A stretch of DNA of 64,000 nt from an uncultured Acidobacteriaceae bacterium (GCA_963782175.1 CAWAIX010000010.1:154399-218398); one strand, 5' to 3'. Numbered from the stretch's first letter, positions 5,582 to 21,182 are shown. A program made the numbers and translations. Notes: generated by a model not told the origin, from the sequence alone.

Positions 5582-5650
5582 TCTAGTGGATGCCGCATCC
5601 GCCAAACACGCTTCTGAATCGGTAGCTATCCTTCTGGTAGCATCGACTGT

Positions 5651-6628: not shown

Positions 6629-6660
6629 ACGCAGGAATGCGGATCCGCGGAAGCGTCGCC

Positions 6661-7002
6661 TTACAGCTTCTCCGCTTCTTCCACCGTGGCCGTTATCGGA
6701 ATCAGTGAATCCACATGGGTGAGCTTGAAAAGCTCTATCACTCGATCATTCACTCCGGCTGCGATCAGCTTGTGTCCGCGCCTCTGCGACGAGACGTAGA
6801 AGTTGATGATCGCTCCCATTCCGGCCGAATCCATGTACTCGACCCCGGTCAGGTCAAGGATTGTTACCGGCGACTGATTCTGTTCCAGCTCACCCTTAAG
6901 CGCGAAGAAATTGCTTAGCAGAACTGGCCCGGTTACGCGTACGATCCGAGTTCCCTCTGACTTTCCGGCGAACGATTCAACATCGAGAGTCTCTTGTTGC
7001 AT
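6661..7002 (-). CDS. STAS-domain anti-sigma-factor antagonist (SpoIIAA-like)
   Basis: 113 aa. LDLTGVEYMDSAGMGAIINF (conserved phosphorylatable Ser context) and GVNDRVIELFKLTHVD. Confidence 0.75.
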   Translation of the reverse strand: MQQETLDVESFAGKSEGTRIVRVTGPVLLSNFFALKGELEQNQSPVTILDLTGVEYMDSAGMGAIINFYVSSQRRGHKLIAAGVNDRVIELFKLTHVDSLIPITATVEEAEKL

Positions 7003-7121
7003 AACGATTTACAGTGTATGTACCTCAGCTGCCCATCAATATTACAGCATCGTGAATACATGCATTTCCGCCGCCCTGTTGCCTTATCATTGGTCATCGA
7101 ACCAGCTCTGCGGGAGGATTT

Positions 7122-8255: not shown

Positions 8256-8293
8256 ACACAATCCCCACCGCGCAACAATGACCCAGTCCGGCC
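8197..8293 (+). repeat. Copy A of the repeated mraY 3' end plus about 38 nt of downstream sequence (the copy currently in use)
   Basis: tggatcgcagccctggtgtttgcgctcttggcgctcaccaccctcaagctgcgctaa recurs at 9047-9105 and 10299-10354. The downstream acacaatccccaccgcgcaacaatgacc resembles 10355-10392. Confidence 0.85.
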
Positions 8294-8615
8294 TTGGAAT
8301 TGTGAGCCATATCATAAATGTGATATAGCTACGCACGAATGGGGTGGAGGACCCGCCGGGTGCCTCGTGCCTTGAGCGTGTCATAGGGTGGACAGCTCCT
8401 CTCGCACCAGCGAGACCCGGTGGAAGATTGGACCTCAGCCCCTGCGTCAGGAAGACAGGAGCTTCGGTTCTGGCAACGAATTGCCAGTTGAGTTGCATTA
8501 ACCCGATCCTCTCCAATTGTTTCGGGAGTTGCGAAAACCACTTCTCCCACAAAGCGTGGCCGGCGAATTCCCGGAACTGGCCGCTTCTCCTTACTAGACG
8601 ACAGGAGCAAACACG

Positions 8616-8801
8616 ATGCCAAACGAACCCGAAAGTCCCAAAACACCAGGGCCGGATGAGTCCAAAACTACGGATGCTGCAGAGAATGAGGAAATCGACC
8701 GCATCGCCGACGAAGCCGCGGGGAAAGCCTTGAGGACGGAAGACCGCTACGACCGGAACCGCACTACGTTCCCGAGGGGCGGACCTTCCGGAGTGGCATA
8801 A
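8616..8801 (+). CDS. Small acidic hypothetical protein (61 aa)
   Basis: ATG preceded by gacAGGAGcaaacacg at good spacing. No recognisable domain. Confidence 0.4.
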   Translation: MPNEPESPKTPGPDESKTTDAAENEEIDRIADEAAGKALRTEDRYDRNRTTFPRGGPSGVA

Positions 8802-8955
8802 GTCTCGCTTTTCCCTCGGCTCTCAGAGGCGCAGCCGGGCAAGATCTTGTGGGGTCCTTGGCGCGACGCCAAATGCGCTCGGATCTCCTTCCGTATTTCG
8901 GACGGGCGTAGATGACCGTGTTGAGTAATCCTCCCGCGCTGGGCGGCTGGGTGTA

Positions 8956-9025
8956 GTGTGCTATCCCAGCTCATATTGTCATCGTGATAAGTGTGCTATC
9001 CCAGCTCATATTGTCATCGTGATAA
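8956..9025. repeat. Perfect tandem duplication of a 35-bp unit
   Basis: gtgtgctatcccagctcatattgtcatcgtgataa occurs at 8956-8990 and again, identical, at 8991-9025. It lies about 20 nt upstream of mraY-end copy B. Confidence 0.95.
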
Positions 9026-9046
9026 ATGACGACGAGTCGCTTGGAT

Positions 9047-9105
9047 TATGGGTCGCAGCCCTGGTGTTTGCACTCTTAGCACTCACCACCCTCAAGCTGC
9101 GCTAG
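9047..9105 (+). repeat. Copy B of the mraY 3' end (orphan)
   Basis: Differs from copy A over the last 17 codons only at three synonymous third positions (gcg>gca, ttg>tta, gcg>gca) and in the stop codon (taa>tag). It still encodes AALVFALLALTTLKLR. Confidence 0.9.
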
Positions 9106-9421
9106 CGGTTGTCGCCCATTCGCGAAAGCATCCCAGTCTGTGTGTGAAGCAGAGCCGTCACCTTCGCGGTTTTTTCTCCGTGCTCGTGGCCTGCCTGTGC
9201 TTCTGCCCTTTAAACAGTTGATGTATTAGGCAAAATCTGAGATTCTGCACTTGAAGGAATGGTGCGGTTGTTTAGGACTCTACCCGAGCGCCACATTCAT
9301 CCTCCCGTGATCGTCCTCGTGGGCGCGATCTCTCCTACGCAGTGGGGCGCGGTACTCTCATCGCTGCGGTGTGCGCAAAATGCAATACGTAAGTAAGTAG
9401 AGGTAAGCAAAACTCTCCAAA

Positions 9422-9445
9422 GGCTGGCACGAAGCCAGCTTTTTC
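9422..9445 (+). terminator. Intrinsic terminator-like hairpin 1
   Basis: gctggc-acgaa-gccagc stem-loop followed by ttttt. Confidence 0.5.
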
Positions 9446-9453
9446 CGTTATCT

Positions 9454-9476
9454 GAGCCGCGTCATGCGGCTCTTTT
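9454..9476 (+). terminator. Intrinsic terminator-like hairpin 2
   Basis: gagccgc-gtcat-gcggctc stem-loop followed by tttt. Confidence 0.5.
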
Positions 9477-9878
9477 CATTTGAACCCAGAAAAATCTCTA
9501 AGATGGAACATTTCCTTTTGGAAATATTCAGAATCGTGGCGGAGTACATCCTTGGCCCCTTGGCCACTGTATGGCTGACCACGAAGCTGAATAACAAGCC
9601 CAAAGCTTAGAAGCTCAGCCAGCCAATTCCCGGACAAACTCCCTAAAAATTGCGTCGGATTGAACTGGGGATTCCGGCCCCAGGGGAGAGCTGCGCCTTT
9701 TTGCCGATTCCGCACGGTGCGGGATTTTCGCCTTTGCCTTTCGCCTTTGCGCTGTGCGCAGGCCCGGATCTCCGAGCGCGTCCGCAGCCCTCGACCTGGC
9801 TCCGTCCTCCCATTCGCCAGCCACCTGAATCGCTCACCAGGCCCCTGGGGCAGTACACTTGCGAGTGAGGGTTTAGCC

Positions 9879-10253
9879 ATGAGCGGCGAAGACGTATTGC
9901 TTCGATGCAGCGAGTGCGGGCAGGAATTTCCGTTTACCGCGACGGAACAGCAGTTCTTTCGGGAGCGTGGTTATACTCCGCCCAAGCGCTGCAAGTCATG
10001 CCGCCAGGCCAAGCAGGCCGCGGGTTCGTATGGTCAGCAGGATAGTGGACGCCCGGCAGGCTACAGCTCTGGTGGGGGTGTCGAAACAACGGTCGTTTGT
10101 GCTAGCTGCGGACAAACCACCACTGTTCCTTTTGAGCCGCGCGGAGATCGGCCGGTTTACTGTAAGAACTGCTACAAGCCGAAGCAGGGCGGACGAGGTC
10201 GTGGCGGTAGCAGCGGAGGAGGAAATCGTGGCCAGGATCGCCGCCGCTACTGA
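9879..10253 (+). CDS. Double zinc-ribbon protein (zf-trcl-like plus CxxC-x17-CxxC domain) with a Gly/Arg-rich tail
   Basis: CSECGQEFPFTATEQQFFRERGYTPPKRCKSC, then CASCGQTTTVPFEPRGDRPVYCKNC (exact CxxC-x17-CxxC spacing). ATG 9879 follows gtGAGGGtttagcc. The upstream part of ORF 9660-10253 looks non-coding. Confidence 0.7.
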   Translation: MSGEDVLLRCSECGQEFPFTATEQQFFRERGYTPPKRCKSCRQAKQAAGSYGQQDSGRPAGYSSGGGVETTVVCASCGQTTTVPFEPRGDRPVYCKNCYKPKQGGRGRGGSSGGGNRGQDRRRY

Positions 10254-10298
10254 TCTTCTTTGACAAGCCGGTTTTCCGAAGCCGAATGCTCAAATGCT

Positions 10299-10392
10299 TG
10301 GATCGCCCCCTGGTGTTTGCACTCTTTGCACTCACCACCCTCAAGCGGCGATAAACGCAAGCCTCAGCGTGCAACAATGACCTGTTCGGCAG
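10299..10392 (+). repeat. Copy C of the mraY 3' end plus downstream spacer (diverged, carries a 1-nt deletion)
   Basis: ttggatcgccccctggtgtttgcactctttgcactcaccaccctcaagcggcgataa followed by acgcaagcctcagcgtgcaacaatgacc. Both align with 8197-8293. Confidence 0.8.
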
Positions 10393-10454
10393 CCGGCCGG
10401 GGACAGCAGAAGTGTGCCCGAATTCCCACGATGCGCGGTCAGCCTCTAAACTCG

Positions 10455-10469
10455 TGAGCATGGAACTCA
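10455..10469 (+). repeat. Left copy of the 15-nt direct repeat bounding the island (attL-like core); a duplicate of the murD start region
   Basis: tgagcATGGAACTCA here versus tgaacATGGAACTCA at 18699-18713 (14/15 identical). An abrupt AT-rich stretch follows immediately. Confidence 0.7.
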
Positions 10470-10507
10470 TCATAACTTTCTTATTATCAGTTATTTAATT
10501 AATATTA

Positions 10508-10530
10508 AACTGTCAGCAAGATGTCAGCAA
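10508..10530 (+). repeat. Candidate integrase arm-type site, left end
   Basis: aactgtcagcaagatgtcagcaa lies about 40 nt inside the left core. It resembles aactgtcaacaagctgtcaaac, which lies about 35 nt inside the right core. Confidence 0.4.
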
Positions 10531-10836
10531 TGCCGCTTTCAAAATTTTGTGGCTAGAGAAGTTTTTCTAGATCGCGGTCCCCAGCGGGGCGTTCGATCTG
10601 GTTTTTGAACCACCCCTCGGGTTGCCTATGGATCGGTCGGCTTCCTGCATCCGGTTAGCAGGTCGGCATTAGGGCCTAGGTCTCAAGAGAGGGCATCAAG
10701 GAATCCATACTGGAAGTGCTGGAAAGTCTGGCATGCGCATTGGGCTGATCTAAAATGCTGACGGGGTACAACGGTTTTGGACTTTTGGGTGATTTGCACA
10801 CCTCTCATCCCTGTGAGCGCGTCTGGCGTGAGCTAC

Positions 10837-11052
10837 ATGATCAACATCTTTCCTAGGGAGTATCACGGACCTATCCCGGTACGGCGCTATCTTCACCCGA
10901 GCGAATTCAAGGTCGCCTTGGCAACCTTGGGATTCAACGCGCATTCCGTTGAGGTGATCTTTGACGAGATGCAACTTGGAAAGAGCCACGCTGAAGGCCC
11001 CGTTCCGCTGTCGGAGGAGGTCGCAGATAAATTCGGTTGGCCGAACGGCTGA
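10837..11052 (+). CDS. Hypothetical small protein (island cargo)
   Basis: ORF 10777-11052. The ATG at 10837 gives MINIFPREYHGPIPVRRYLHPSEFKVALATLGF.... Composition looks protein-like, but there is no recognisable domain. Confidence 0.3.
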   Translation: MINIFPREYHGPIPVRRYLHPSEFKVALATLGFNAHSVEVIFDEMQLGKSHAEGPVPLSEEVADKFGWPNG

Positions 11053-11148
11053 CCATAAGCGACGCCTTCGGAAACTCGCACCACTTGCGCGTGAAGAGCA
11101 GCGAAGATGCGGAAAGCGATATGCTTACTGTCACTCAATTTCAGCAAC

Positions 11149-12265
11149 TAGTGACCTGTCGCAGAGTAAACATTACTAGTCCTGCTTACATCTAAGCAGG
11201 TATGTCCATCGATTCGGTGGTGCTCAGCGAAGACCAGCAACTGGAACTCAGCCGTAGTGCCCAGTCCCGCTCTCTGCCCGCCGGATATGTCTTCCGCGCC
11301 AGGCTGATTCTGATGCTGGCCGAGGGAGCGTCGTTCAATACGATCAAGCAGAGGTTGCGGACCACAGCGCCGACGATCAGCCGGTGGAAGCGGCGCTTCC
11401 TTGCTTCGGGTATGGATGGCCTGGATACGAGTCATCCCGGACAGTCCGCTTCCGTGCTGACTCCTAAGCTGCGAGCCCGGATTCTCTCGACTACCCGCAA
11501 GAAGCCGAGGGACGGTTCCACTCACTGGAGTTGTCGCAAGCTTGCCGCAGCGCTGGGCGTCAGCAAGGACGCAGTGCATCGGGTGTGGAAAGAGGCCGGC
11601 CTGAAGCCGCACCGCCTGGAGCGCTACATGGCCAGCGACGATCCGGATTTCGAAGCCAAAGCCGCTGACATTATCGGGCTGTACCTGAACCCTCCGCAGC
11701 ATGCTGCCGTGTTCTGTGTTGATGAGAAGACTGCCATTCAGGCACTGGATCGGCTCGATCCGGTGCTGCCGCTTTCGCCGGGCCGCGCCGAGCGCCACGG
11801 ATTTGAATACTACCGGCACGGAACCCTCTCGCTGTATGCGGCGCTGGACACCGCGACCGGCCGCGTTCACGGCAAGACCGCCGCTCGCCACACCAGTCGG
11901 GACTTTGTCGGTTTCCTGAAGGAGGTTGTCTCCCTGTGCCCGCCCAATCAGCAGATCCACATCATCCTCGACAATCTCTCGGCTCACAAAACCGCGCTGG
12001 TGCGGGAGTTCCTGGAGCAACATCCCCGCGTCCGGTTCCACTTCACACCCACCTACTCCTCATGGCTCAATCAGGTCGAACTCTGGTTCGCGAAAATCGA
12101 GCGGGAGGTCATCGCCCGCGGCGTCTTTACCTCCGTGCCCGATCTGGCCCGCAAACTGCGCCGCTACATCAACGCTTACTCAGCCAATGCTCAGCCTATC
12201 AACTGGAAGTACTCCGACCCTTCTCACCGCATCCGCAGTAACGATCTCTCTGCGACAGGCCACTA
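11149..12265 (+). mobile_element. IS630-family insertion sequence with flanking TA duplication
   Basis: Terminal inverted repeats: gtgacctgtcgcagag (11151-11166) versus the reverse complement of 12248-12263, gtggcctgtcgcagag (15/16). TA on both sides (11149-11150, 12264-12265). Single DDE transposase ORF. Confidence 0.88.
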
Positions 12266-12266
12266 G
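11202..12266 (+). CDS. IS630-family DDE transposase
   Basis: 354 aa. N-terminal HTH (LMLAEGASFNTIKQRLRTTAPTISRWKRRF), then CVDEKTAIQAL, HIILDNLSAHKT and TPTYSSWLNQVELWFAKIERE. Confidence 0.9.
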   Translation: MSIDSVVLSEDQQLELSRSAQSRSLPAGYVFRARLILMLAEGASFNTIKQRLRTTAPTISRWKRRFLASGMDGLDTSHPGQSASVLTPKLRARILSTTRKKPRDGSTHWSCRKLAAALGVSKDAVHRVWKEAGLKPHRLERYMASDDPDFEAKAADIIGLYLNPPQHAAVFCVDEKTAIQALDRLDPVLPLSPGRAERHGFEYYRHGTLSLYAALDTATGRVHGKTAARHTSRDFVGFLKEVVSLCPPNQQIHIILDNLSAHKTALVREFLEQHPRVRFHFTPTYSSWLNQVELWFAKIEREVIARGVFTSVPDLARKLRRYINAYSANAQPINWKYSDPSHRIRSNDLSATGH

Positions 12267-12509
12267 TCTTCTGTACGGCATGGATGTGGCCCCTTGGCAC
12301 TCTGCTCAGTCATCAAGAGTCGCAACCAAAGAGCGTCGAAGGCGCATTGCTTTTCGGTGGTGCTTGGATATTTTGCGGTATCAGGCTTTATGTCAAAAAG
12401 AAGTGGCCGTTCAACAGGCCGCAATAGGGGCCATGGCTGGGCTTCGCGATGGGGTCCGGGTGTCGTGGTCCAAGGGTTGTTACCGACGTGGATACAGGGC
12501 AGAGAGGAT

Positions 12510-12538
12510 TTGACATGTCCAAGCATCGGGAGTATAAT
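12510..12538 (+). promoter_or_regulatory. Consensus sigma-70-type promoter (TTGACA-17 nt-TATAAT)
   Basis: ttgaca at 12510-12515, a 17-nt spacer, tataat at 12533-12538. It points into the 3' end of the minus-strand Rep-like gene (antisense). Confidence 0.4.
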
Positions 12539-12731
12539 GCCTCTCTCCCAGAGTGCCACGTTGCACCAGAATGCCCGTAGATCGCGTCAGGATGCCCTAC
12601 AAGCAATTTTTTCGACTCAGGTGAGGGGAATGCGTCACCCGAGATGCATCGACGCCTTAAATCGGGTCGCCACCGCACAGTATGCGGTTGATCCAATAGC
12701 GAAGGCTGGATCGGTGCCCGTGGGGAGGTGT

Positions 12732-13492
12732 TCAGGCCCGGAGGTGGAGAGGGCCGAAGAATCGCGTCACGCCTTTGAGTGAATCAATGCGGCGGATGAA
12801 CTCGTCAGGATCGGCAAGGAGAGCGCGGTAGTTTCTAGTGATGTTGCTCGGAGTCGCCCACTTCGTGCAGTACCGGACCAGTCCAGCAAGATCATCTTCA
12901 GTGACGCCAGCTTGGACGGCTACGATGCTGGCGTGCTTCTTTGGCTTGGTAGGTTGCCTTCTCTTAAGCGGCACCGTCATGTCACGCCTTCGAGCCAGCG
13001 GACAGGCGGCCTCCCACATGAGAATCCAGTCAGGTTCCGAGATGCGGTAGCGTCCCTTGTCTAAGGGCTTCGTGATTACGAGGCTGTGAACATGGGCGCA
13101 CGGCTTAACTCGTCCATGCTTCAGGGCCACTTCGAGCACAGAGAAGTGAGCGACCACGCGAGAACGAAGTCGCTCATGCTTGAGCAGGTTCCGCATTCCC
13201 CTCACAGCAGCCTTAGCGTGAGTGTTTACCTCGTCGCTGTCTTCAGCAGCGCCAGTGAGAAACCACAACTGGTAGCTGGGATGGCTTCGGAGGAGAGCAG
13301 GGAGAACTTGTTCAAGGTGTTCCGCTGCTTGTAGACCTTACGGCTCGTGCACTTTATGCAGTACGCATTGTGGCAATGTTTGTGACCGTAGCAGTCCCTG
13401 ATACGGATACTGTCGCGGATCAGCTTACGCTTCGAAAGGTGACGAACAATGTCAGCGGAGAGACGATCAATCGAGGTGAGGGCTACGGACAC
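12732..13492 (-). pseudogene. Rolling-circle replication initiator-like gene (Rep_1/pUB110-type architecture), split into two frames
   Basis: ORF 13226-13492 carries a Cys-rich CHNAYCIKCTSRKVYKQR. ORF 12732-13268 carries WFLTG, SVLEVAL, an HUH-like PCAHVHSLVI, ISEPDWILMWEAA and VRYCTKW (Tyr motif). The order matches RCR Rep motifs, but the two ORFs are in different frames. Confidence 0.5.
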
Positions 13493-13738
13493 GCTACTGA
13501 GAGGACCCCTTCAAGAGAACCAGAAAGAAGACAAACGAATTTACAAGGATAAAAGAGCACGCGGGGTGTGAACAGCCCCGTAAACACGGGGTTGTTAACA
13601 AAGACGGGTGGACTTCAGGCTTGGTAAGCAAGTCTTATGTCTTAACAAGGTGACACACCGACCCCCTCCCCAAGTTAATGGGTGTAAGGGCAGGATAGCA
13701 CGGCACAGGGAAATGTCAAGAGGCTCGGGCCAAAAAGG

Positions 13739-14812
13739 CTAAGGTCCGGGACGAACCGACGTTGGCGGGCGGTCGTCCTGCTTGAGACTGCTGAGCACCC
13801 GGTCGAAGGCTTTCTGGTACTGGCCATGATCTTTCCAGTTGCTGAAATCGGGAATGAAATACTCCCGGATTTCTCGAGCCGAATCCTTCCCAGTATCCGC
13901 ATCGGGCAACTTCCATTGCTGTATCAGTGAAAAGGCCACCAGACTGATCGGGAAGAGCACTTGGCGGTGTTCATTGACCTCCTTCTGACGTGCGTGGGCG
14001 ATTTCCGTCTCAACCCAGGCACTCTTCATGCTTGCTTCAGAGAGAATCAGCAGAAGCCGGTCGTAGACTCGTATTGCCTCGTCAAGCTGATCATGAATCT
14101 TTCTTCCTGCTTGGATATGGTGTGGGGCAAACCAGCAGCGCACGCCGTTATGTTGCAGATCAGCATAAAGGCGGTCAGCAAAATCCTGATCTACTGTCGA
14201 ATAGCTGATGAAGCACGAATAGAACTGGATCGGCTGATTCGAAAGTGACGGCAAGTAAGTAATGAGCGTCTCGGGGACGCCGCAGCCCCGCAGAAAGTTC
14301 AGCGGCAGTTGGCCAAAGCGAGTTAGTGTGCGGTAGTCGAGCGGGCTTGGCCCCTTATGAGTGCAAGCGTCTAAACCCAATGTCTCTGTCAGGTCTACAT
14401 TGGCAAAGACAGTTTCATCAAGGATCGCCCCACTGAGGTTTGCCCCACTGAGGTCCGCCGCATTCAAGTTCGCCCCACTGAGGTCCGCCCCACTGAGGTC
14501 CGCCGCAAGAAGAACTGCGACACTGAGGTCCGCCCCTTGGAGGTCCGCCCGGCTGAAGTTCACCCTACTGAGGCTCGCCGCGACTAGGTTTGCCCCACGG
14601 AGGTCCGCCCCACGGAGGTCCGCCCCTTGGAGGTCCGCCCCACTGAGGTCCGCCCCTTGGAGGTCCGCCCCACGGAGGTCCTTCGCACCGAGGTCCGCTC
14701 GACTGAGGTCCGCTTCACGGAGGTCCAGTGCAGTTGTCGAATCGCTTGCCCGCCATTGGTTCCACGCCATCACCCCTTGCCGGATGCGCTCCAAGTGTTC
14801 CGAGTTCGACAT
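13739..14812 (-). CDS. Pentapeptide-repeat / TIR-domain fusion protein
   Basis: About 20 consecutive A(D/N)LxG pentapeptide repeats, then a TIR domain: YSCFISYSTVDQDFADRLYADLQHNGVRCWF...RLLLILSEASMKSAWVETEIAHA (SxWxxxE glutamate present). Start taken at MSNSEHLERI (14812); the ORF extends to 14977. Confidence 0.85.
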   Translation of the reverse strand: MSNSEHLERIRQGVMAWNQWRASDSTTALDLREADLSRADLGAKDLRGADLQGADLSGADLQGADLRGADLRGANLVAASLSRVNFSRADLQGADLSVAVLLAADLSGADLSGANLNAADLSGANLSGAILDETVFANVDLTETLGLDACTHKGPSPLDYRTLTRFGQLPLNFLRGCGVPETLITYLPSLSNQPIQFYSCFISYSTVDQDFADRLYADLQHNGVRCWFAPHHIQAGRKIHDQLDEAIRVYDRLLLILSEASMKSAWVETEIAHARQKEVNEHRQVLFPISLVAFSLIQQWKLPDADTGKDSAREIREYFIPDFSNWKDHGQYQKAFDRVLSSLKQDDRPPTSVRPGP

Positions 14813-15007
14813 GCAAGCCAAGATACGCGGCGGAAGACATAGCGGAAAAGAATTAAGAGAACGAATCGACTTCAACTTGTCGCTTTCGGTTTGGTAGCTT
14901 TCCCTCTGTATCAAAAAAGGGTGCCCGTCGCGACACGAATTGGCGTGGATTTGAGACTCACATTTCGGGTGTTGCAAATAACGACCGTTTTATGATACTT
15001 TCTACAC

Positions 15008-15601
15008 ATGAGAACAGCGATCTACGCCAGAGTATCCACGAAGGACGGTCGGCAGGACACCGAAAACCAATTGCGGCAACTTCGGGACTTCGCAGCTACT
15101 CAAGGCTGGACCGTGGTTCACGAGTACGTAGATCGCGCCAGCGGAAAGCGTGGTGACCGTGAGCAATTCCAGAGGATGTTCGGAGCGGCATCCCGGCGGG
15201 AGTTCGATGTGCTGCTCTTCTGGAGCCTTGACCGCCTCAGCCGTGAGGGCACCGTAGAGACGCTTAACCACCTGCAACGGCTCACGGGCTACGGCGTGAA
15301 CTACAGATCGTTCACTGAGCAATATCTCGACAGCACGGGGATGTTTAAGGAGGCAGTCATCGGCATCCTCGCGGCGGTGGCAAAGCAAGAGCGCGTGCGG
15401 CTGAGTGAGCGTACGATCGCAGGTCTACAGCGTGCTAAGGCTCAAGGTAGAGTTGGCGGTCGCCCGAAAACCGAAGACAACTCGACGGTCGTAAAGGCTC
15501 TTCGGCAGTTGCGGCGAGAGGGTAGGAGCATCCGCGCAATCGCGGCTCAGTTGAAGCTGAGCACCGGCACGGTGCAAAAGCTAGTAAAACAGGCAGTCTG
15601 A
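15008..15601 (+). CDS. Serine recombinase (resolvase/invertase family)
   Basis: MRTAIYARVSTKDGRQDTENQ (catalytic Ser context), LLFWSLDRLSREG, and C-terminal GRVGGRPK plus an HTH. Confidence 0.9.
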   Translation: MRTAIYARVSTKDGRQDTENQLRQLRDFAATQGWTVVHEYVDRASGKRGDREQFQRMFGAASRREFDVLLFWSLDRLSREGTVETLNHLQRLTGYGVNYRSFTEQYLDSTGMFKEAVIGILAAVAKQERVRLSERTIAGLQRAKAQGRVGGRPKTEDNSTVVKALRQLRREGRSIRAIAAQLKLSTGTVQKLVKQAV

Positions 15602-15618
15602 GGGACGGATTCGGACAG

Positions 15619-16500
15619 ATGCCCCAAATCTCCCAACGCACCGTCGCTCTGATGATCCCTCTTTACGGGGCGCTTGGCTGTTTTGATCCCACATATCGAA
15701 ACTTGAGGAGCGGAATGGTCCCGCTCGTGACGGCCAGCCAACTGAAGAATCGACTGTATGCGCAAGGTTTCGACACTGCGATTTTGGGCTTCTTTCAGCA
15801 GCAGTCGTGGAAGTTTGACAGGATTCTGCCTTCGCTCCTCGACGGGTCATTCATCACTTCCGCCGATTGGTCAACCTCTTGGGAACGCACGGGACCTCAG
15901 TACGTACTTGGTCTGGCGGAGGCACTCTTGGGGATTTCCCGGCAACCTGAGATACCTCACTCTCCCCTTTTCGATGATCTGTTGAGGGAGTTTGAACGTG
16001 ATGGTTATGTTCTCAGCGGTGGGAGACTGGTTGAAGCCGACACATCGATAGTGGATGTTCCTGCCGAGGTCTCATTGCTTCGCGCCTCCATCGATAGAAG
16101 TCGCCATGACAATAAGTCGGTGCTCACGCATCACTTCGATACGGCGGCCCAACAGCTGGAGGATGAGCACTGGGGTCCAACTATGGGTGAATGGCGGAAG
16201 TTCTTCGAGGAAGTTCTGCGCGGCGTCTGGCGGTTCACCCGTCAGAAGAATCGTGACGCAGCAGCGAAGATTGAGAGACCTGGAATGGCTGATCTCTTCA
16301 AATGGTTGCAGGAGGTCGGATTTTTTACGGCGGATGAAGCCACGGCATATGGCGCGGTCTATGGATTTTTATCTGGGGGTAATCACCCAGGTATCAGGGA
16401 TAGAGATTCAGCACGATTTTGTATGATACTCGCGATGACGTTCGGGCACTCTTGCCTTCTGAAACTGGAGTCCTGGACAGGAACGGACTACTCAATATGA
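15619..16500 (+). CDS. Hypothetical protein (293 aa), co-oriented with and 17 nt after the resolvase gene
   Basis: Long ORF with protein-like composition. I recognise no domain. Start codon uncertain. Confidence 0.5.
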   Translation: MPQISQRTVALMIPLYGALGCFDPTYRNLRSGMVPLVTASQLKNRLYAQGFDTAILGFFQQQSWKFDRILPSLLDGSFITSADWSTSWERTGPQYVLGLAEALLGISRQPEIPHSPLFDDLLREFERDGYVLSGGRLVEADTSIVDVPAEVSLLRASIDRSRHDNKSVLTHHFDTAAQQLEDEHWGPTMGEWRKFFEEVLRGVWRFTRQKNRDAAAKIERPGMADLFKWLQEVGFFTADEATAYGAVYGFLSGGNHPGIRDRDSARFCMILAMTFGHSCLLKLESWTGTDYSI

Positions 16501-16763
16501 CCACTGCCAAGGAACTCATTGATGCCTGCGAAATACGAAATAAGGGATGGAGGTACCGCGAACAGTTTTGGCTGGCTGAGATCGGACTCCTTCGGGATGT
16601 AGTTGGGTAGCCGCAATTCCTCCGCAGTAAAGGTGCAAGCGGTCCCGGGGGTCAGACGAACAATACTTCCGGCCCACTCGTCGCTGCATGTACCTGCTGT
16701 CGCCGCTGGAAACCGCAGGGTCTCCGAAGGGTCAGCAAAACTGACCACGGGGAAGCCTCCGAT

Positions 16764-17420
16764 TCAATGCAATTGCGGCACTCGAATGGACTCCCAAACC
16801 GCAAAAGAAACAAAGGATTTCGGAGCGTCAGCGGCGGAAAAGTGTGTCTCCGTTCGTTGCAGTGTTATCCGTCGCGATCCACAAGTGTTGCTCAACTCAA
16901 GTTTGCTCCTACCAGTCCCTCGCTGTTCAGTATTTCCCGAATCACGAGTGATGTTGAAGGCGGGATGGCTGCAACCGCATAGAAACGTCACTGCCGTCAC
17001 AGACGATGTGCTCGGGGCGTGAGGTCTGTACTCCGAACTAGTAGCGAGCACGCAAAGGGTATGGCTCTCCGCTTCCAGTGCTTTTGCCCTCGCGTAGAAG
17101 GCGTCAAAGACCGCGGTGGATGAGTTGCTATCGCCCTCAACCCATTGTCGATCTATTTGGCTCACAACGTGACCTCTCGTCGAGATCGAGCCGAGCCAGA
17201 CTGGAGGATTCTTCTGCCAAACGTCCCAGTCCACCTGATCACTCGCGGCGGTATCCGCGTCCTTGCTTACGTCGAAATCCCGGCTCAGTGCGGCCAGCAG
17301 AGCATCCGAGGGCATACCGAGGGTCACCGTGTGGTCCCCGAAGGTGGTGGAAGCGGTTTGCGAGGAACATTTCACGCCACAGGTAGCAAGACAAAGAATG
17401 GTGATGACGAGAACTTTCAA
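16764..17420 (-). CDS. Putative secreted protein or lipoprotein, hypothetical
   Basis: N-terminal KVLVITILCLATCGVKCSS signal/lipobox-like sequence. TTG start overlaps the integrase stop (TTGA). The C-terminal third looks low in information and could be frame-damaged. Confidence 0.45.
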   Translation of the reverse strand: MKVLVITILCLATCGVKCSSQTASTTFGDHTVTLGMPSDALLAALSRDFDVSKDADTAASDQVDWDVWQKNPPVWLGSISTRGHVVSQIDRQWVEGDSNSSTAVFDAFYARAKALEAESHTLCVLATSSEYRPHAPSTSSVTAVTFLCGCSHPAFNITRDSGNTEQRGTGRSKLELSNTCGSRRITLQRTETHFSAADAPKSFVSFAVWESIRVPQLH

Positions 17421-18613
17421 GGTCTCTCCTGCCAGCCGCTGGTGAAGACCCGATTGACGAGGGCCCGCTGAGCGTCACCGTGGATGGCTTCGGCGTACAA
17501 CTGGGTAACGCTGATCGATGAGTGTCCGGCCATGACGGACGCGGTTTTGATGTCCACTCTAGCCCTGAGCAACGTAGTCACGAACTTTTTGCGCAGCATG
17601 TGGAGACCGAATTCCTTGGGGTCGAGTCCCGCCTTGGTCGCCTCGGCTTTGATTCGCTTGAGTAGACTATGGTGCGGCTTCCCAGTGCGTGTTTCGAGGA
17701 TTAGTCGGCTGTGTGGATGGTAGGCTCGCCACTGGTGGAGGTGATTGAGTAGGCCGTCATTTATGGCGATGTGACGCTCGGTGCGTGTTTTGATTGTGAA
17801 ATCCAAGTCTGGCTTCTCGGTGACGGTGAACTGCCCGGCTGTCCAGTCGATATCTGACCACGCTGCGTACATGAGTTCCCTTTTGCGGAGTCCCAATTCG
17901 GCGAGCATGCGGACGGCTGTGTATAGGATCGGGCTGCACGTGGTGAGTAGTTTGTCGAGTTGCTCGTCGCTGCATACCCGGGGCTTCAAACGCGGGATGG
18001 TAGGTGCGTCCGGCAGGTTGGGAATGGTGACTCCGGCCCACTTGAGGAATGTTTTCAGAATCACGTAGCGATTGCGGATGGTGCGGTCTTTGAGACCACT
18101 GGATCGCAGGTGAGTAAACCAGTCAAGAATGTCCTGCCGGGTGATTGTTGGCCACGCTGCCCACGATTTGAAGAGATACTGCGCTTGTCTCTCCATCTCG
18201 AACTTGTGTTGTTGGCGGAGGTCCATCAAGAAGGCCGTAGACGCCTCTCTGAGCGTCCGGTAGGTCGGAGAGGATGCCTGAGTCGCCTGAAGGTCCGCGA
18301 GGCGCTTGGCGAGGCGTTTCTGTGCGGCGTGGACGGTGTTGGTTATCATGTCCTGCATGATGTTGGGCGCGACGATGACGCCAGACGGCGGAGTGAGGTT
18401 CAAGGGTTCGAATCGGCGCTTGCCGTGGTGCCAGTATTTGAGGAAGTATCTGCCGCCCGGGTAGTGACACTCTTGACCCTTATCGCGAACGTAGGCGCGG
18501 CCTTCGCGTATTCTGGGTGACATGAACTCACGCCAGCCGCGAGGGGTCTTGACACGGTACACGAGCGGGAGCGTTTGCTTGCCGGGTGGTTTGGGCTGCG
18601 TCGATGTGGTCAT
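17417..18613 (-). CDS. Tyrosine recombinase / phage-type integrase
   Basis: 398 aa. C-terminal catalytic region LGLRKRELMY..., HMLRKKFVTTLL and AGHSSISVTQLYAE (R...HxxR...GH...Y). Confidence 0.9.
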   Translation of the reverse strand: MTTSTQPKPPGKQTLPLVYRVKTPRGWREFMSPRIREGRAYVRDKGQECHYPGGRYFLKYWHHGKRRFEPLNLTPPSGVIVAPNIMQDMITNTVHAAQKRLAKRLADLQATQASSPTYRTLREASTAFLMDLRQQHKFEMERQAQYLFKSWAAWPTITRQDILDWFTHLRSSGLKDRTIRNRYVILKTFLKWAGVTIPNLPDAPTIPRLKPRVCSDEQLDKLLTTCSPILYTAVRMLAELGLRKRELMYAAWSDIDWTAGQFTVTEKPDLDFTIKTRTERHIAINDGLLNHLHQWRAYHPHSRLILETRTGKPHHSLLKRIKAEATKAGLDPKEFGLHMLRKKFVTTLLRARVDIKTASVMAGHSSISVTQLYAEAIHGDAQRALVNRVFTSGWQERP

Positions 18614-18642
18614 TGGCGGGGATGGTAGGACGGGCGTCGAGC

Positions 18643-18664
18643 AACTGTCAACAAGCTGTCAAAC
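18643..18664 (+). repeat. Candidate integrase arm-type site, right end
   Basis: aactgtcaacaagctgtcaaac lies between the integrase start and the right core repeat. Same orientation as 10508-10530. Confidence 0.4.
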
Positions 18665-18698
18665 GGAGCTGTAAGCGACAGAAAACAAGTGGACGTTT

Positions 18699-18713
18699 TG
18701 AACATGGAACTCA
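18699..18713 (+). repeat. Right copy of the 15-nt direct repeat (attR-like core), containing the functional murD ATG
   Basis: tgaacATGGAACTCA. The ATG at 18704 opens MELKGKKVLVVGLGKSG. Confidence 0.7.
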
Positions 18714-20083
18714 AAGGGAAAAAGGTTCTCGTCGTCGGACTCGGCAAGTCCGGCCTTGCCGCCGCGCTCTTTCTGCGCCGCAAGGGCGCGCAGGTCACCG
18801 TCTCGGACGTGCGCAGCGCCGCCGCCCTCGACAAGGCCATCCCCGCGCTGCTCGACGAGGGCATCATGGTCGAGGCCGGAGGCCACGGCCTGCTCACCTT
18901 CCGCCGACAGGACCTCATCGTCGTCAGCCCCGGCGTTCCGCTCGACACTCCAGAGCTCGTGCAGGTGCGCAACTTCGGACTCCTCGTCATCGGCGAGCTC
19001 GAACTCGCCGCGCACTTCCTCGCCGGCAAGACTCTCGCCATCACCGGCTCCAACGGCAAAACCACGACGACTAGCCTTTGCGGCGAAATCCTCACTGCTG
19101 CCTTTCCGCACGTCCAGGTCGGAGGCAATATCGGCGTGCCCGTCATCGCCCTGGTCGACCAGTCCCGCGAGGACGGCTGGTCGGTCCTCGAAGTCTCCAG
19201 CTTCCAACTGGAAACCACTTTCGATTTCCGTCCCGACATCGCCGTCATCCTCAACATCACGCCCGACCACCTCGACCGCCACGGCAGCTTTGACAACTAC
19301 ATAGCCGCCAAGGAGCGCATCTTCGCCAATCAGCGCCCAGAAGATGTCCTCGTCCTGAACGCCGACGACGAGGTGGCATCGCGCGCCGCCATCCGCGCCA
19401 AATCAAGGATCTTCTGGTTCAGCCGCACTCGCATCATCCGCCAGGGAGCCTTCGTTCACGACGGCGGCGTCTGGTTCCGCGCCACCGAGCAATCCGCGCC
19501 CGAATTTATCCTCAAGGCTAACGCGATCCCCCTCAAGGGCCTGCACAACGTCGAGAACGTGCTTGCCGCCGTCTGCTCCGCCCGCCTCGCCGGAGTCGCC
19601 CCCGAAATCATCCGCGACGCCATCCAGAAATTCCGCGCCGTCGAGCACCGCCTCGAATTTGTCGCCACCGTCAACGGAGTCGACTACTACAACGACTCCA
19701 AGGCCACCAACGTTGACGCCGCCCTCAAAGCCATCGAAGCCTTTCCGTCCGGCATTCACCTCATCCTCGGAGGCAAGGACAAAGGCTCCGACTACCGCGT
19801 CCTGCGCCCGCTCATCCAGGAGCGCGTCAAGGCCATCTACACCATCGGAGCCGCCTCCGAAAAAATCATCACCCACCTTGAAGGCGCTGCACCCATCGTC
19901 GACTCCGGCACGCTCGACGTCGCCGTGACGAAAGCCGCCGACGCTGCCCGGCCAGGCGACATCATCCTGCTCGCGCCCGCCTGCTCCAGCTTCGACCAGT
20001 TTGAAAACTACGAACAGCGCGGGCAAATCTTCAAAGACCTCGTCTTCGCCCGCCGCGGACTTCCCGAATGGCAGAACGCATAG
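18704..20083 (+). CDS. murD: UDP-N-acetylmuramoylalanine--D-glutamate ligase
   Basis: KKVLVVGLGKSGLAAALFL (Rossmann-like N-domain), ITGSNGKTTTT (P-loop), NVENVLAA and DSKATN. Confidence 0.93.
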   Translation: MELKGKKVLVVGLGKSGLAAALFLRRKGAQVTVSDVRSAAALDKAIPALLDEGIMVEAGGHGLLTFRRQDLIVVSPGVPLDTPELVQVRNFGLLVIGELELAAHFLAGKTLAITGSNGKTTTTSLCGEILTAAFPHVQVGGNIGVPVIALVDQSREDGWSVLEVSSFQLETTFDFRPDIAVILNITPDHLDRHGSFDNYIAAKERIFANQRPEDVLVLNADDEVASRAAIRAKSRIFWFSRTRIIRQGAFVHDGGVWFRATEQSAPEFILKANAIPLKGLHNVENVLAAVCSARLAGVAPEIIRDAIQKFRAVEHRLEFVATVNGVDYYNDSKATNVDAALKAIEAFPSGIHLILGGKDKGSDYRVLRPLIQERVKAIYTIGAASEKIITHLEGAAPIVDSGTLDVAVTKAADAARPGDIILLAPACSSFDQFENYEQRGQIFKDLVFARRGLPEWQNA

Positions 20084-20090
20084 GAGCGGA

Positions 20091-21182
20091 ATGGCAAAAC
20101 GCGTAGGCGTAGACAAGTGGCTCTTCGGCGCAACTCTCGTCCTCACCGTCATCGGACTGCTGATGGTCTTCAGCGCCTCCGCCGTCATGGCCAAGGAGCG
20201 CTTCGGCTCGCCCTACGCTTTCGTCATCCGCCAATCCCTCTGGGCTGCCTTCGGACTCACCGCGATGGTCCTGCTCATGAAGATCGACTATCGCCGCTAC
20301 AACAACTCCAACGTCGTCTTTCCTGCCGTTGCCGTCTCTGTTCTGCTGCTGCTGGTCGCGTTCCTGATGCACGACTCACACGCCACCCATCGCTGGATCC
20401 GCTTCGGCGCGCTCTCCTTTCAGCCATCTGAGATAGCGAAGCCCGCGCTCGTGCTCTTTCTTGCCTGGTTCCTGCAGAACCGCATGCAGACCATCGAAGA
20501 TTTCCGCGGAACCATCCTTCCCGCCGCTCTGCCCAGCCTCATCTTCATCGCGCTCATTTTGAAAGAGCCCGACCTTGGCACCGCGCTGGTCTGCGCAGGA
20601 GTCACCGCGCTCATGCTCTATCTCGCCGGCATGAACATGAAATATCTCGGGCTCGCCGCGCTCGCCTCCGCGCCCGTGCTCTACTTCATGCTCTTCCGGG
20701 TCAAGTGGCGGCGTGACCGCATTCTCGCCTTCCTCAACCCTGAGTCCGACCCGCTCGGCAAGGGCTTCCACATCATCCAATCGCTCATCGCCGTCGGCAC
20801 CGGAGGCCTCTCCGGCACGGGATTCATGGACGGCCGCCAGAAGCTCTTCTATCTGCCCGAGCCCCACACCGACTACATCTTCGCCAACATTGCCGAAGAA
20901 CTCGGCCTCATCGGAGCCATCGCCGTCGTCGGCCTCTTCATCGTGCTCGGCTACCGCGGAATGCGCGCCGCCATTCTCTCCAAGGACCCCTTCGCCCGCT
21001 TCCTCGCCTTCGGCATCACGGCGACGCTCCTCATCCAGGCCTTCTTCAACATCAGCGTGGTCCTCGCCCTCGTTCCCACCAAAGGCATCACCCTCCCCTT
21101 CATCTCCTACGGAGGAACCTCGCTGTTCATCATGCTTGCGTCCATCGGCGTGCTCCTGAATATCACGCGGGAAGTGGATTAG
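20091..21182 (+). CDS. ftsW: SEDS-family peptidoglycan glycosyltransferase / cell-division protein FtsW
   Basis: ATG 20091 follows tAGGAGcgga. Motifs: LFGATLVLTVIGLLMVFSAS, SFQPSEIAKPAL, EPDLGTA, LPEPHTDYIFA, GITLPFISYGGTS. Confidence 0.92.
   Translation: MAKRVGVDKWLFGATLVLTVIGLLMVFSASAVMAKERFGSPYAFVIRQSLWAAFGLTAMVLLMKIDYRRYNNSNVVFPAVAVSVLLLLVAFLMHDSHATHRWIRFGALSFQPSEIAKPALVLFLAWFLQNRMQTIEDFRGTILPAALPSLIFIALILKEPDLGTALVCAGVTALMLYLAGMNMKYLGLAALASAPVLYFMLFRVKWRRDRILAFLNPESDPLGKGFHIIQSLIAVGTGGLSGTGFMDGRQKLFYLPEPHTDYIFANIAEELGLIGAIAVVGLFIVLGYRGMRAAILSKDPFARFLAFGITATLLIQAFFNISVVLALVPTKGITLPFISYGGTSLFIMLASIGVLLNITREVD

What the first reader, a model, noticed from the sequence alone, without database searches (positions are those of the whole stretch)
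10455..18713. Integrase island inserted precisely at the murD start codon, cutting murD-ftsW off from mraY
Seen in sequence:
- The 15-mer tgagcATGGAACTCA (10455-10469) recurs as tgaacATGGAACTCA (18699-18713), 14/15 identical.
- The right copy contains the ATG of murD (MELKGKK...). The left copy is an orphan ATG-GAA-CTC that runs straight into an abrupt AT-rich stretch (catcataactttcttattatcagttatttaattaatattaa).
- The sequence just left of the orphan copy (10355-10454) follows a copy of the mraY 3' end. So 10299-10469 looks like the ancestral mraY-spacer-murD junction.
- A tyrosine integrase gene (17417-18613) abuts the right repeat.
- Similar 22-23-nt motifs (aactgtcaNcaagNtgtca...) sit 35-40 nt inside each end in the same orientation, as arm-type sites would flank an attP core.
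- Cargo: IS630, a Rep-like remnant, a pentapeptide-TIR gene, a serine recombinase, a lipoprotein and unknown genes.

Inference: this is a site-specific integrative element whose attB is the 5' end of an essential cell-wall gene. After insertion, the promoter and RBS context of murD-ftsW is supplied by about 90 bp of element DNA next to int. That is unusual, since most integrative elements target 3' ends of tRNA or protein genes.
Basis: partly seen in the sequence, partly recalled or inferred. Interest (0 to 1): 0.65.

Follow-up and report, generated by a model that had tools for sequence, protein, structure and literature searches.

The report
Integrase island at the murD start codon
An 8.2-kb mobile island carrying its own integrase sits exactly at the first codons of the essential cell-wall gene murD in a soil acidobacterium, and at least four related elements, one of them a prophage, use the same spot; this is a new attachment site for an otherwise familiar kind of element.

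Summary

- **Repeat:** the 15-mer TGA(G/A)CATGGAACTCA occurs only at 10455-10469 and 18699-18713 in the 64-kb window.
- **Breakpoints:** both copies lie exactly where similarity to related Acidobacteriaceae genomes breaks. Window 10299-10469 is the ancestral mraY end, spacer and murD start. Similarity resumes at 18699.
- **Empty sites:** 72 of 77 related species have mraY and murD no more than 217 nt apart. None carries an island gene near murD.
- **Same site, other elements:** four other elements sit divergently 90-120 nt from the same core at the murD ATG (L085, L086, L104, L107). Their integrases are 36-50% identical to this one. L104 is a prophage. L086 has a same-species empty-site partner, L002.
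- **The island (10470-18698):** it has an intact tyrosine integrase and symmetric arm-type repeats. It has no conjugation or phage structural genes.

- mraY and murD are 10.4 kb apart, not 8.2 kb. Two further integrase-less modules, bounded by three copies of the mraY 3' end, lie at 8300-10293.
- Targeting a gene's 5' end has a precedent: SXT/R391 elements in prfC.

How murD-ftsW is transcribed after insertion is unresolved.

The parts
7122..8255 (+). mraY. Its last ~58 nt are copy 1 of the triplicated 3' end.
   Evidence: Pfam Glycos_transf_4 and MraY_sig1. 93% aa identity to L001 and L023.
8209..8299 (+). Copy 1 of the mraY 3' end plus ~44 nt of spacer-like sequence. This is the left boundary of the extra insert.
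   Evidence: Repeat family D2. Similarity to L023 runs to window 8299. Alignment A3.
8300..9036 (.). Module A: foreign DNA without an integrase (orf61 at 8616-8801). It ends with a perfect 35-bp tandem duplication at 8955-9024.
   Evidence: No counterpart near murD in 80 relatives. D5 repeat. GC3 0.61. No Pfam hit.
9037..9105 (+). Copy 2 of the mraY 3' end. Similarity ends at its TAG stop codon.
   Evidence: window 9046-9104 aligns to the mraY end of L001 at 91.5%.
9106..10293 (.). Module B: foreign DNA without an integrase. It carries a treble-clef zinc-finger gene at 9879-10253 (+).
   Evidence: Pfam zf_Tbcl and zf_Tbcl_2. TIGR04272. No counterpart near murD in relatives. GC3 0.59.
10294..10454 (+). 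Copy 3: the ancestral mraY 3' end plus the complete ancestral mraY-murD spacer.
   Evidence: Aligns over its whole length with the spacers of L023, L001 and L002.
10455..10469 (+). attL core TGAGCATGGAACTCA. Its left arm is bacterial, and it carries an orphan murD start.
   Evidence: Similarity to relatives stops at 10469.
10470..10526 (+). Left (P') arm of the island: a 38-nt AT-rich stretch, then the arm-type motif AACTGTCAGCAAGATGTCA (10508-10526).
10777..11052 (+). orf91, unknown function.
   Evidence: No hit in Pfam, PHROGs, PADLOC or NCBIfam.
11147..12267 (+). IS630-family insertion sequence (transposase 11202-12266). It is a secondary insertion with a TA duplication in an ACTAGT target.
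   Evidence: Pfam DDE_3 and HTH_32. 31-nt inverted repeats, I1. Flanks read.
12732..13492 (-). Rep-like gene, apparently frameshifted (ORFs 13226-13492 and 12732-13268).
   Evidence: Weak Rep_1 hit, E = 0.0023, below the cut-off. ORF layout.
13739..14977 (-). Pentapeptide-repeat plus TIR-domain protein, a defence-like cargo gene.
   Evidence: Pfam Pentapeptide and TIR_2. PADLOC SAVED-TIR and ThsB-like TIR. 15-nt periodicity, D1.
15008..15601 (+). Small serine recombinase (resolvase/invertase type).
   Evidence: Pfam Resolvase, E = 2.9e-35. 85% aa identical to the recombinase in element L086.
15619..16500 (+). orf293, unknown function.
   Evidence: No hit in four libraries.
16764..17420 (-). 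orf218, a putative lipoprotein. It overlaps the int stop codon by 4 nt.
   Evidence: N-terminus LKVLVITILCLATCG has a lipobox-like motif. No family hit.
17417..18613 (-). Tyrosine integrase, intact.
   Evidence: PF00589. phrog_1 integrase. Catalytic R243, K275, H338, R341, H364 and Y373 are invariant.
18622..18651 (-). Candidate int promoter: TTGACA, 18 nt, TACCAT. It overlaps the arm-type motif.
   Evidence: 10 of 12 consensus positions; a consensus match only.
18643..18661 (+). Right (P) arm motif AACTGTCAACAAGCTGTCA, 37 nt from the core.
   Evidence: Tandem 9-11-nt repeats lie at the same place in L082, L085, L086, L104 and L123.
18699..18713 (+). attR core TGAACATGGAACTCA. Its left arm comes from the element, and it holds the working murD start codon (18704).
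   Evidence: Similarity to relatives resumes at 18696-18703.
18704..20083 (+). murD, intact, 459 aa.
   Evidence: Pfam. 88% aa identity to L001.
20001..21182 (+). ftsW. The exact start codon was not determined.
   Evidence: Pfam FTSW_RODA_SPOVE, E = 1.8e-107.

Best explanation
Window 10470-18698 (8,229 bp) is a small genomic island. It entered the chromosome by site-specific recombination, catalysed by its own tyrosine integrase (17417-18613).

**The recombining sites.** The element core (attP) reads tGAaCATGGAACTCA. The chromosomal attB reads GTGAGCATGGAACTCA. attB consists of the 5-6 nt before the murD ATG plus the first 10 nt of murD.

**Where the strands crossed.** The single mismatch (G at attL, A at attR) places strand exchange inside CATGGAACTCA. 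This is inferred from the sequence.

**Consequences for the host.**
- attP carries ATGGAACTCA, so integration leaves the murD reading frame unchanged.
- Everything upstream of the murD ATG is replaced by the int-proximal end of the element.
- The native mraY end, spacer and an orphan start are displaced 8.2 kb upstream.

**Binding sites (inferred).** Two direct copies of AACTGTCANCAAGNTGTCA lie 37-38 nt on either side of the core. They are most likely arm-type integrase binding sites. The right copy also overlaps the -35 region of a likely int promoter.

**A property of an integrase clade.** Using this attB is shared by related integrases. At least four other elements in Acidobacteriaceae sit in the same orientation at the same core. 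Their integrases are 36-50% identical to this one. One of them is a prophage.

**Nature of the island.** It has no conjugation or phage structural genes and no recognisable excisionase. It carries an IS630 copy, a TIR-domain defence-like gene and a serine recombinase. It is therefore either a mobilisable island or a decaying one.

**Shown versus inferred.** Shown: the insertion, its exact boundaries, the empty sites and the recurrence of the target. Inferred: the crossover position, the role of the arm motifs, present-day mobility and how murD-ftsW is now transcribed.
For: **The repeat and the breakpoints**
- The core repeat is unique in the window and not expected by chance.
- Against L023, L001 and L002, similarity blocks end at window 10467-10469 and resume at 18696-18703. 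The two blocks overlap by the 15-nt core in the relatives' coordinates (alignment).

**Empty sites**
- 72 of 77 related species have an mraY-murD gap of 217 nt or less. None of the 80 loci has a tblastn hit to any island protein.
- A short contig in soil run X1 joins the ancestral spacer end CTCTAAACTCG directly to murD.

**Other elements at the same core, with int divergent from murD**

| Locus | Integrase identity | Context |
|---|---|---|
| L085 | 50% | Contig ends in murD |
| L086 | 39% | 99.2% identical to empty-site genome L002 up to 7 nt before the ATG |
| L104 | 39% | Carries capsid, S78 protease and portal genes |
| L107 | 36% | murG-ftsW-murD context |

**Integrase and arm sites**
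- Catalytic residues are intact.
- The arm motif is unique and symmetric about the core.
- Tandem repeats occupy the same position in relatives.

**Composition**
- GC and GC3 look foreign.
Against: - No excised circle or same-strain empty site could be observed. No public run covers the junctions at useful depth.
- No excisionase, relaxase or transfer genes were found.
- attL could be read only in this window. The other four elements are on contigs that do not reach their far end.
- Three copies of the mraY 3' end just to the left show the locus has a more complex history than one insertion.
- No rightward sigma-70-like promoter was detected for murD in the element end.
Confidence: 0.85

Rival explanations
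1. The island is now an immobile relic. It integrated as described but can no longer excise or transfer, so the split of mraY from murD-ftsW is permanent in this lineage.
For: - No excisionase, relaxase, conjugation or packaging genes.
- A secondary IS630 insertion and a frameshifted Rep-like gene.
- The same island with the same IS is found at 99.6% identity in an independent metagenome contig, L081.
- No joint indicating excision in the available runs.
Against: - The integrase ORF and its catalytic residues are intact.
- The core (14 of 15) and both arm motifs are intact.
- Contig L081 ends exactly at the core boundary. This could reflect mixed occupancy in that sample.
- The read data are too thin to show absence of excision.
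Confidence: 0.45
2. The island is what is left of a prophage or phage satellite that used this attB. It did not originate as a plasmid-like or mobilisable island.
For: - Two elements with related integrases are prophage-like. L104, at murD, has capsid, protease and portal genes. L106 has capsid, protease and small terminase genes.
- The integrase matches phrog_1.
Against: - No phage structural, lysis or repressor gene is detectable in the island.
- No similarity to 50,697 phage records.
- The only replication-like trace is a weak match to the Rep_1 family of plasmid replication proteins.
- L086 and L107 also lack phage genes in the parts seen.
Confidence: 0.3
3. The true mobile unit is larger (about 8300-18698). 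Alternatively, this integrase also uses the mraY 3' end repeats as attachment sites, so modules A and B belong to the same element.
For: - Three copies of the mraY 3' end bound modules A and B directly next to the island.
- Genes in A and B also have low GC3.
- L081 carries part of module B joined to the island.
Against: - The island ends show no similarity to the mraY 3' end.
- The ancestral spacer lies intact between module B and the island.
- The four other elements share only the murD core.
- The arm motifs flank the 15-mer symmetrically.
- L081 diverges from the window left of 9813.
Confidence: 0.1
4. The 15-mer is a chance repeat. The 8.2 kb is ancestral DNA that was deleted in the relatives.
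For: No genome of the same strain or species with an empty site was available for this window.
Against: - Chance expectation for the repeat is 0.01.
- The site is empty in 72 of 77 species across several genera.
- The repeats coincide with the breakpoints to the nucleotide.
- There are five independent occupancies at the same core and one same-species occupied/empty pair.
- Composition is foreign.
Confidence: 0.02

Closest known systems
[quoted passage not shown]
   Same: A tyrosine integrase recombines nearly identical attP and attB sequences at the 5' end of a conserved chromosomal gene (PMC2791158, citing Hochhut and Waldor 1999). The gene stays functional because the element supplies the replaced 5' part.
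   Different: - The target is murD, inside an essential mraY-murD-ftsW unit, and only the first 10 nt of coding sequence are involved.
- The island has no conjugation genes and is 8 kb rather than about 100 kb.
- Relatedness of the two integrases was not tested.
- That SXT supplies a new prfC promoter is my recollection, not something checked here.
Lambda-type integrases with core and arm-type binding sites in attP
   Same: int lies next to one attachment site. There is a short identical core. Repeated motifs lie tens of nucleotides from the core on both arms, and an AT-rich arm is present.
   Different: - Binding of Int to the motifs was not tested.
- Both motifs are direct repeats at equal distance from the core.
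- No excisionase gene was found.
- The N-terminal domain matches no known arm-binding domain in Pfam.
Integrative mobilisable elements and small integrase-bearing genomic or defence islands
   Same: Small size, own integrase, cargo with a defence-like TIR gene, an IS, no transfer machinery, and a weak trace of a plasmid-type Rep_1 replication gene.
   Different: No relaxase or oriT was identified, so mobilisability is not shown.
Tandem accretion of elements at one attachment site (CIME/ICE arrays in Streptococcus thermophilus; from memory)
   Same: Integrase-less modules bounded by repeated attachment-site copies lie next to an integrase-bearing element.
   Different: - The modules are bounded by a different repeat (the mraY 3' end) from the one bounding the island (the murD start).
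- No integrase that uses the mraY 3' end was found.
Elements that target the 3' end of protein genes and carry a replacement 3' end (for example e14 and phage 21 in icd; from memory)
   Same: Modules A and B are bounded by copies of the last ~58 nt of mraY. Copies 1 and 2 preserve the same C-terminal peptide, LVFALLALTTLKLR*.
   Different: This applies only to modules A and B, not to the integrase island. No integrase remains in A or B.

Membership tests
Tyrosine recombinase / phage integrase family (PF00589) | Catalytic domain with the R, K, HxxR, H/W and Y residues | tested here: met
   PF00589 E = 5.5e-21, above the cut-off. R243, K275, H338, R341, H364 and Y373 are invariant in alignments A2 and A4.
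Site-specific integrative element (island or prophage type) | Direct repeats at both ends that equal the chromosomal target sequence | tested here: met
   15-nt repeat, 14 of 15 identical, unique in the window. The left copy is identical to the attB of relatives.
Site-specific integrative element (island or prophage type) | Empty target site in related genomes, with breakpoints at the repeats | tested here: met
   72 of 77 species have an empty site. Breakpoints lie at 10469 and 18699. L086 and L002 form an occupied/empty pair for a sister element.
Site-specific integrative element (island or prophage type) | Same target used repeatedly by related integrases | tested here: met
   L085, L086, L104 and L107 all have int divergent from murD at the core GAGCATGGAACT.
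Site-specific integrative element (island or prophage type) | Excision to a circular form, with a recombination directionality factor | not testable with these tools
   No run covers the junctions. No excisionase-like domain was found among the ORFs scanned.
Integrative conjugative element | Conjugation module (relaxase, coupling protein, type IV secretion) | tested here: not met
   No such domains in any island ORF.
Integrative mobilisable element | Own relaxase and/or oriT | tested here: inconclusive
   Only a weak, sub-threshold Rep_1 hit on a frameshifted gene.
Prophage | Phage structural, packaging or lysis genes | tested here: not met
   PHROGs hits are limited to integrase, invertase and repeat proteins. 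Sister elements L104 and L106 do carry capsid and portal or terminase genes.
SXT/R391 family | Near-identical Int(SXT) and integration in prfC | tested here: not met
   The target here is murD. NCBIfam and Pfam give only generic Xer-like matches. The resemblance is in strategy only.
Thoeris-type or other TIR anti-phage system (cargo gene 13739-14977) | TIR protein together with the partner effector or sensor of a defined system | tested here: inconclusive
   The TIR domain matches SAVED-TIR and ThsB models. No partner gene was recognised, and all NCBIfam scores are below the cut-offs.

The most novel reading that the evidence does not exclude
Elements of this integrase clade may do more than tolerate their position. 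Their conserved int-proximal 90-120 bp may carry an outward promoter and 5' leader that takes over expression of murD-ftsW.

- A -10-like box (TAGAAT, TAAAAT or CAGAAT) lies about 25-45 nt before the core in most of the seven aligned flanks, including two flanks not at a confirmed murD site.
- If this is a promoter, two essential wall and division genes would be under element-borne control.
- Integration and excision would then switch the operon between host and element control.
- Together with the mraY 3' end relics, this would make the mraY-murD spacer a double hotspot that mobile elements use to tap an essential operon.
Probability: 0.3. Interest if true: 0.65.

Novelty: new member of a known kind. 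Interest (0 to 1): 0.5.

Why it matters
- **A new attachment site.** The work defines a previously undescribed attB, the murD start codon, and the integrase clade that uses it in Acidobacteriaceae. Mobile elements of this abundant soil family are poorly known. My literature search found no report of murD as an attachment site.
- **A natural experiment.** The site is unusual because it disconnects an essential, normally contiguous mraY-murD-ftsW unit. Occupied and empty genomes therefore show how much upstream context murD-ftsW needs.
- **Practical use.** The 16-nt core plus a divergent integrase is a simple signature. It can be used to find prophages and islands in acidobacterial genomes and metagenome-assembled genomes, and to explain contig breaks at this locus.
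- **A possible tool.** The integrase and attP could serve as a single-copy integration tool for a group that has few genetic tools.

Tried and rejected
- **Excision evidence from reads.** No run holds the attL region. Runs X1-X4 cover only murD of relatives; X1 gave one empty-site piece. Run X25 holds the island at depth about 2 with no junction information.
- **More family members by word-index protein search.** The search returned only four, even when a profile was used. The exhaustive search was needed.
- **Metagenome scan with the integrase profile.** It gave one useful locus, L086; the other hits were 24-31% identical.
- **Viral contig scans.** I scanned for the integrase, the mraY 3' end mimic, the 35-bp repeat and the 16-nt core. 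The only hits were chance matches without an integrase.
- **Phage and plasmid collections.** No similar DNA. The best phage integrase match is 28% identical.
- **Larger mraY-murD gaps in L061, L075, L050 and L026.** I checked these as possible further islands. They hold ordinary genes and no integrase.
- **RNA.** No Rfam family in 6.5-19.5 kb except a sub-threshold RsmY hit. No conserved fold in the mraY-murD spacer.
- **Far end of another element.** L108 (14.5 kb) has no second core or mraY.
- **Exact-sequence look-up of the zinc-finger protein.** Not on record.
- **The 26 nt at the end of L081 that do not match the window.** They match nothing else in the window either.
- **A sigma-70 promoter for murD in 18614-18703.** None found by the consensus scan.

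Full report
**Setting.** The window comes from an Acidobacteriaceae chromosome. All 80 loci recovered with its MurD protein are from that family. The local gene order is:
- SIS/CBS protein (5651-6628)
- STAS protein (6661-7002, minus strand)
- mraY (7122-8255)
- about 10.4 kb of other DNA
- murD (18704-20083)
- ftsW (to 21182)
- an M20 peptidase

The closest relatives (L001, L023, L002; MurD 85-88% identical) share the SIS-STAS-mraY-murD-ftsW order, with mraY and murD about 105 nt apart.

**Check of the observation.**
- The 15-mer occurs only at 10455-10469 and 18699-18713. Chance expectation is 0.01 per window.
- The right copy holds the murD ATG.
- The left copy is followed by an AT-rich stretch and opens an orphan 12-codon ORF.
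- The integrase, IS630 transposase, pentapeptide-TIR protein and serine recombinase are confirmed by Pfam.
- The TIR domain resembles those of anti-phage systems.
- The 'lipoprotein' has a lipobox-like N-terminus.
- The 'Rep-like remnant' is only a weak sub-threshold hit on an apparently frameshifted gene.
- The end motif AACTGTCANCAAGNTGTCA is unique to 10508-10526 and 18643-18661. Both copies have the same orientation and lie 38 and 37 nt from the core.

**Is it an insertion at that exact place?** Yes.
- Against L023, L001 and L002, the similarity blocks are window 5001-8299, 9046-9104, 10299-10469 and 18696/18703-21182.
- The last two blocks overlap by the 15-nt core in the relatives' coordinates. 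The duplicated core therefore coincides with both breakpoints.
- Window 10299-10469 aligns with the relatives over the whole spacer, including two conserved boxes, and ends with GTGAGCATGGAACTCA.
- Of the 77 related species in which both genes were found, 72 have a gap of 217 nt or less. None of the 80 loci has a hit to any island protein.
- The five larger gaps examined hold ordinary genes, not integrases.
- A short contig in a rhizosphere run joins the spacer end CTCTAAACTCG directly to murD.
- The island has GC 0.563 against 0.602 for the window. Its genes have GC3 of 0.58-0.72 against 0.79-0.83 for the host genes.

**Recurrence of the target.** This is the strongest new evidence.
- The integrase is rare. 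Only four relatives were found by the word-index search. The exhaustive search found 199 representatives at E ≤ 1e-30, few of them close.
- Wherever the 5' flank of a close relative could be read, the arrangement seen in the window recurred in four more cases: int divergent from murD, 90-120 nt of spacer, then the core at the murD ATG.

| Locus | Integrase identity | Junction and context |
|---|---|---|
| L085 | 50% | gGAGCATGGAACTCAAAGGC |
| L086 | 39% | tGTGAGCATGGAACTCAAAAGC; cargo UDG and GNAT, plus a serine recombinase 85% identical to the window's |
| L104 | 39% | cGTGAGCATGGAACTCAAAGGG; followed by HK97-type capsid, S78 protease and portal genes, so it is a prophage |
| L107 | 36% | taGAGCATGGAACTAAAAGGC; murG-ftsW-murD context, cargo Abi_C |

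- L086 is 99.2% identical to the empty-site genome L002 over murD and ftsW. That similarity stops 7 nt before the ATG. This is a same-species occupied/empty pair.
- L123 ends in GGAGCA in register with the others and may be a sixth case.
- Other relatives (L082, L105, L106, L124) sit elsewhere.
- All readable flanks carry a tandem 9-11-nt direct repeat between the int ATG and the core. Its sequence differs between elements. This is the pattern expected if integrase binding sites co-evolve with their integrase.

**Mechanism.**
- The core mismatch is bacterial G at attL and element A at attR. This places strand exchange within CATGGAACTCA (inference from the sequence).
- attP carries the first ten nucleotides of murD, so the reading frame is untouched and only the upstream region is exchanged.
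- The integrase has all catalytic residues.
- The right arm motif, read on the minus strand, contains two TTGACA hexamers. One of them forms a good -35/-10 pair for int. It may therefore serve both as a binding site and as a promoter element.
- No excisionase, relaxase, conjugation or phage structural gene is present.
- An IS630 copy with a TA duplication is a secondary insertion.
- The same island with the same IS occurs at 99.6% identity on an independent metagenome contig, L081. That contig stops exactly before ATGGAACTCA. This could reflect mixed occupancy, but it is not proof.

The mraY 3' end is present three times.
- The copies are at 8209-8299 (the working end of the ORF), 9037-9105 and 10294-10382.
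- Only the third copy continues into the full ancestral spacer.
- Copies 1 and 2 both encode LVFALLALTTLKLR and a stop codon. Copy 3 encodes LVFALFALTTLKRR (read from the sequence).
- Between the copies lie module A (with a perfect 35-bp tandem repeat just before copy 2) and module B (with a treble-clef zinc-finger gene). Both have low GC3 and no counterpart near murD in relatives.
- The simplest reading is two earlier insertions at the mraY 3' end. The elements would have carried a replacement 3' end, which is the classical strategy, and later lost their integrases. Alternatively the modules are integrase-less passengers.
- I could not find the responsible element family.
- mraY and murD are therefore 10.4 kb apart, and the junction has been hit at least three times at two different sites.

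**Consequence for murD-ftsW.**
- The genes between mraY and murD include three on the opposite strand, so co-transcription with mraY is implausible (inference).
- The 85-90 bp between int and murD is element DNA. It replaces the conserved box CTTCTAAACTCGTGAGC that precedes murD in relatives.
- No rightward sigma-70-like promoter was detected there.
- A -10-like box (TAGAAT, TAAAAT or CAGAAT) lies about 25-45 nt before the core in most of the aligned flanks; in the window it is only CAGAAA. This is a lead, not a result.
- In some relatives murD is naturally separated from mraY by other genes. murD-ftsW can therefore be expressed independently of mraY in this family.

**Comparison with what is known.**
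- The element works like other tyrosine-integrase islands and prophages.
- It is not an ICE, because the conjugation module was tested and not met.
- It is not a recognisable prophage, although sister elements are.
- I found no report of murD as an attachment site. The hits that I opened matched only words beginning with 'Murd', such as the author name Murdoch.

**Verdict.**
- It is a new member of a known kind: a new integrase clade with a new attB at the start codon of an essential gene, reused by islands and at least one prophage.
- Interest is moderate.
- The open question worth testing is who drives murD-ftsW once the site is occupied.

Noticed in passing
window 8209-8299, 9037-9105, 10294-10382: The last ~58 nt of mraY occur three times. 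They bound two integrase-less foreign modules (8300-9036 and 9106-10293). Copies 1 and 2 keep the same C-terminal peptide and a stop codon. This suggests serial insertions at the mraY 3' end, a second hotspot about 100 nt from the murD site.
   Followed up: partly
window 8955-9024: A perfect tandem duplication of a 35-nt unit (AGTGTGCTATCCCAGCTCATATTGTCATCGTGATA) lies immediately before copy 2 of the mraY 3' end. It may be a pair of arm-type binding sites of a lost element. No match in viral contigs.
   Followed up: partly
L081 (ENA ERZ25039496 contig_35340), positions 1 and 8887-8912: This independent metagenome contig carries the same island at 99.6% identity. It ends exactly at ...cgttttgaac, one base before the ATGGAACTCA core. 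Its other end diverges from the window left of 9813. L123, from a sister sample, also ends inside a core-like GGAGCA. Contig breaks at the attachment site may indicate mixed occupied and empty populations.
   Followed up: partly
window 14934-15601 and L086 7137-7796: The serine recombinase is 85% identical in protein (82% in DNA, including 74 nt upstream) between two elements whose integrases are only 39% identical. A recombinase module seems to be exchanged between elements that use the same site. L105 also carries a resolvase.
   Followed up: partly
window 10355-10459 and the mraY-murD spacers of L001-L014: Two sequence boxes are conserved across genera in an otherwise variable spacer. One is ACGTGCAACAATGACCTGTCCGG, just after the mraY stop. 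The other is CTTCTAAACTCGTGAGC, just before the murD ATG, and contains a -10-like TAAACT 7 nt from the ATG. No conserved RNA fold. Their function is unknown. The second box is what the island displaces.
   Followed up: partly
window 10460-10498: At attL the orphan murD start opens a 12-codon ORF (MELIITFLLSVI, then TAA) running into the AT-rich arm. Read-through from upstream could translate it.
   Followed up: no
window 13739-14977 (-): The cargo protein joins about 25 pentapeptide repeats (15-nt DNA periodicity at 14376-14750) to a C-terminal TIR domain that resembles ThsB and SAVED-TIR defence proteins. No partner gene of a known system lies nearby.
   Followed up: partly
window 11147-12267: An IS630-family element with an intact 354-aa transposase, 31-nt inverted repeats and a TA duplication in an ACTAGT target. 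A contig in run X27 diverges from the window at both 11147 and 11177, the two ends of the IS's left inverted repeat, so related copies probably sit elsewhere in soil genomes.
   Followed up: partly
window 6661-7002 (-): A STAS-domain (anti-sigma antagonist-like) gene sits divergently just upstream of mraY. It is conserved there in the closest relatives only. In this lineage mraY-murD-ftsW stands apart from the other wall-synthesis (mur) and division (fts) genes it is usually clustered with.
   Followed up: no
L082 9860-10003: A 43%-identical integrase at a non-murD site has the same flank layout. It also has a core-like AGATCGATTTACTCAATGG at the position where the others have GAGCATGGAACTCAAAGG. 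This may be an example of target switching within the clade.
   Followed up: no
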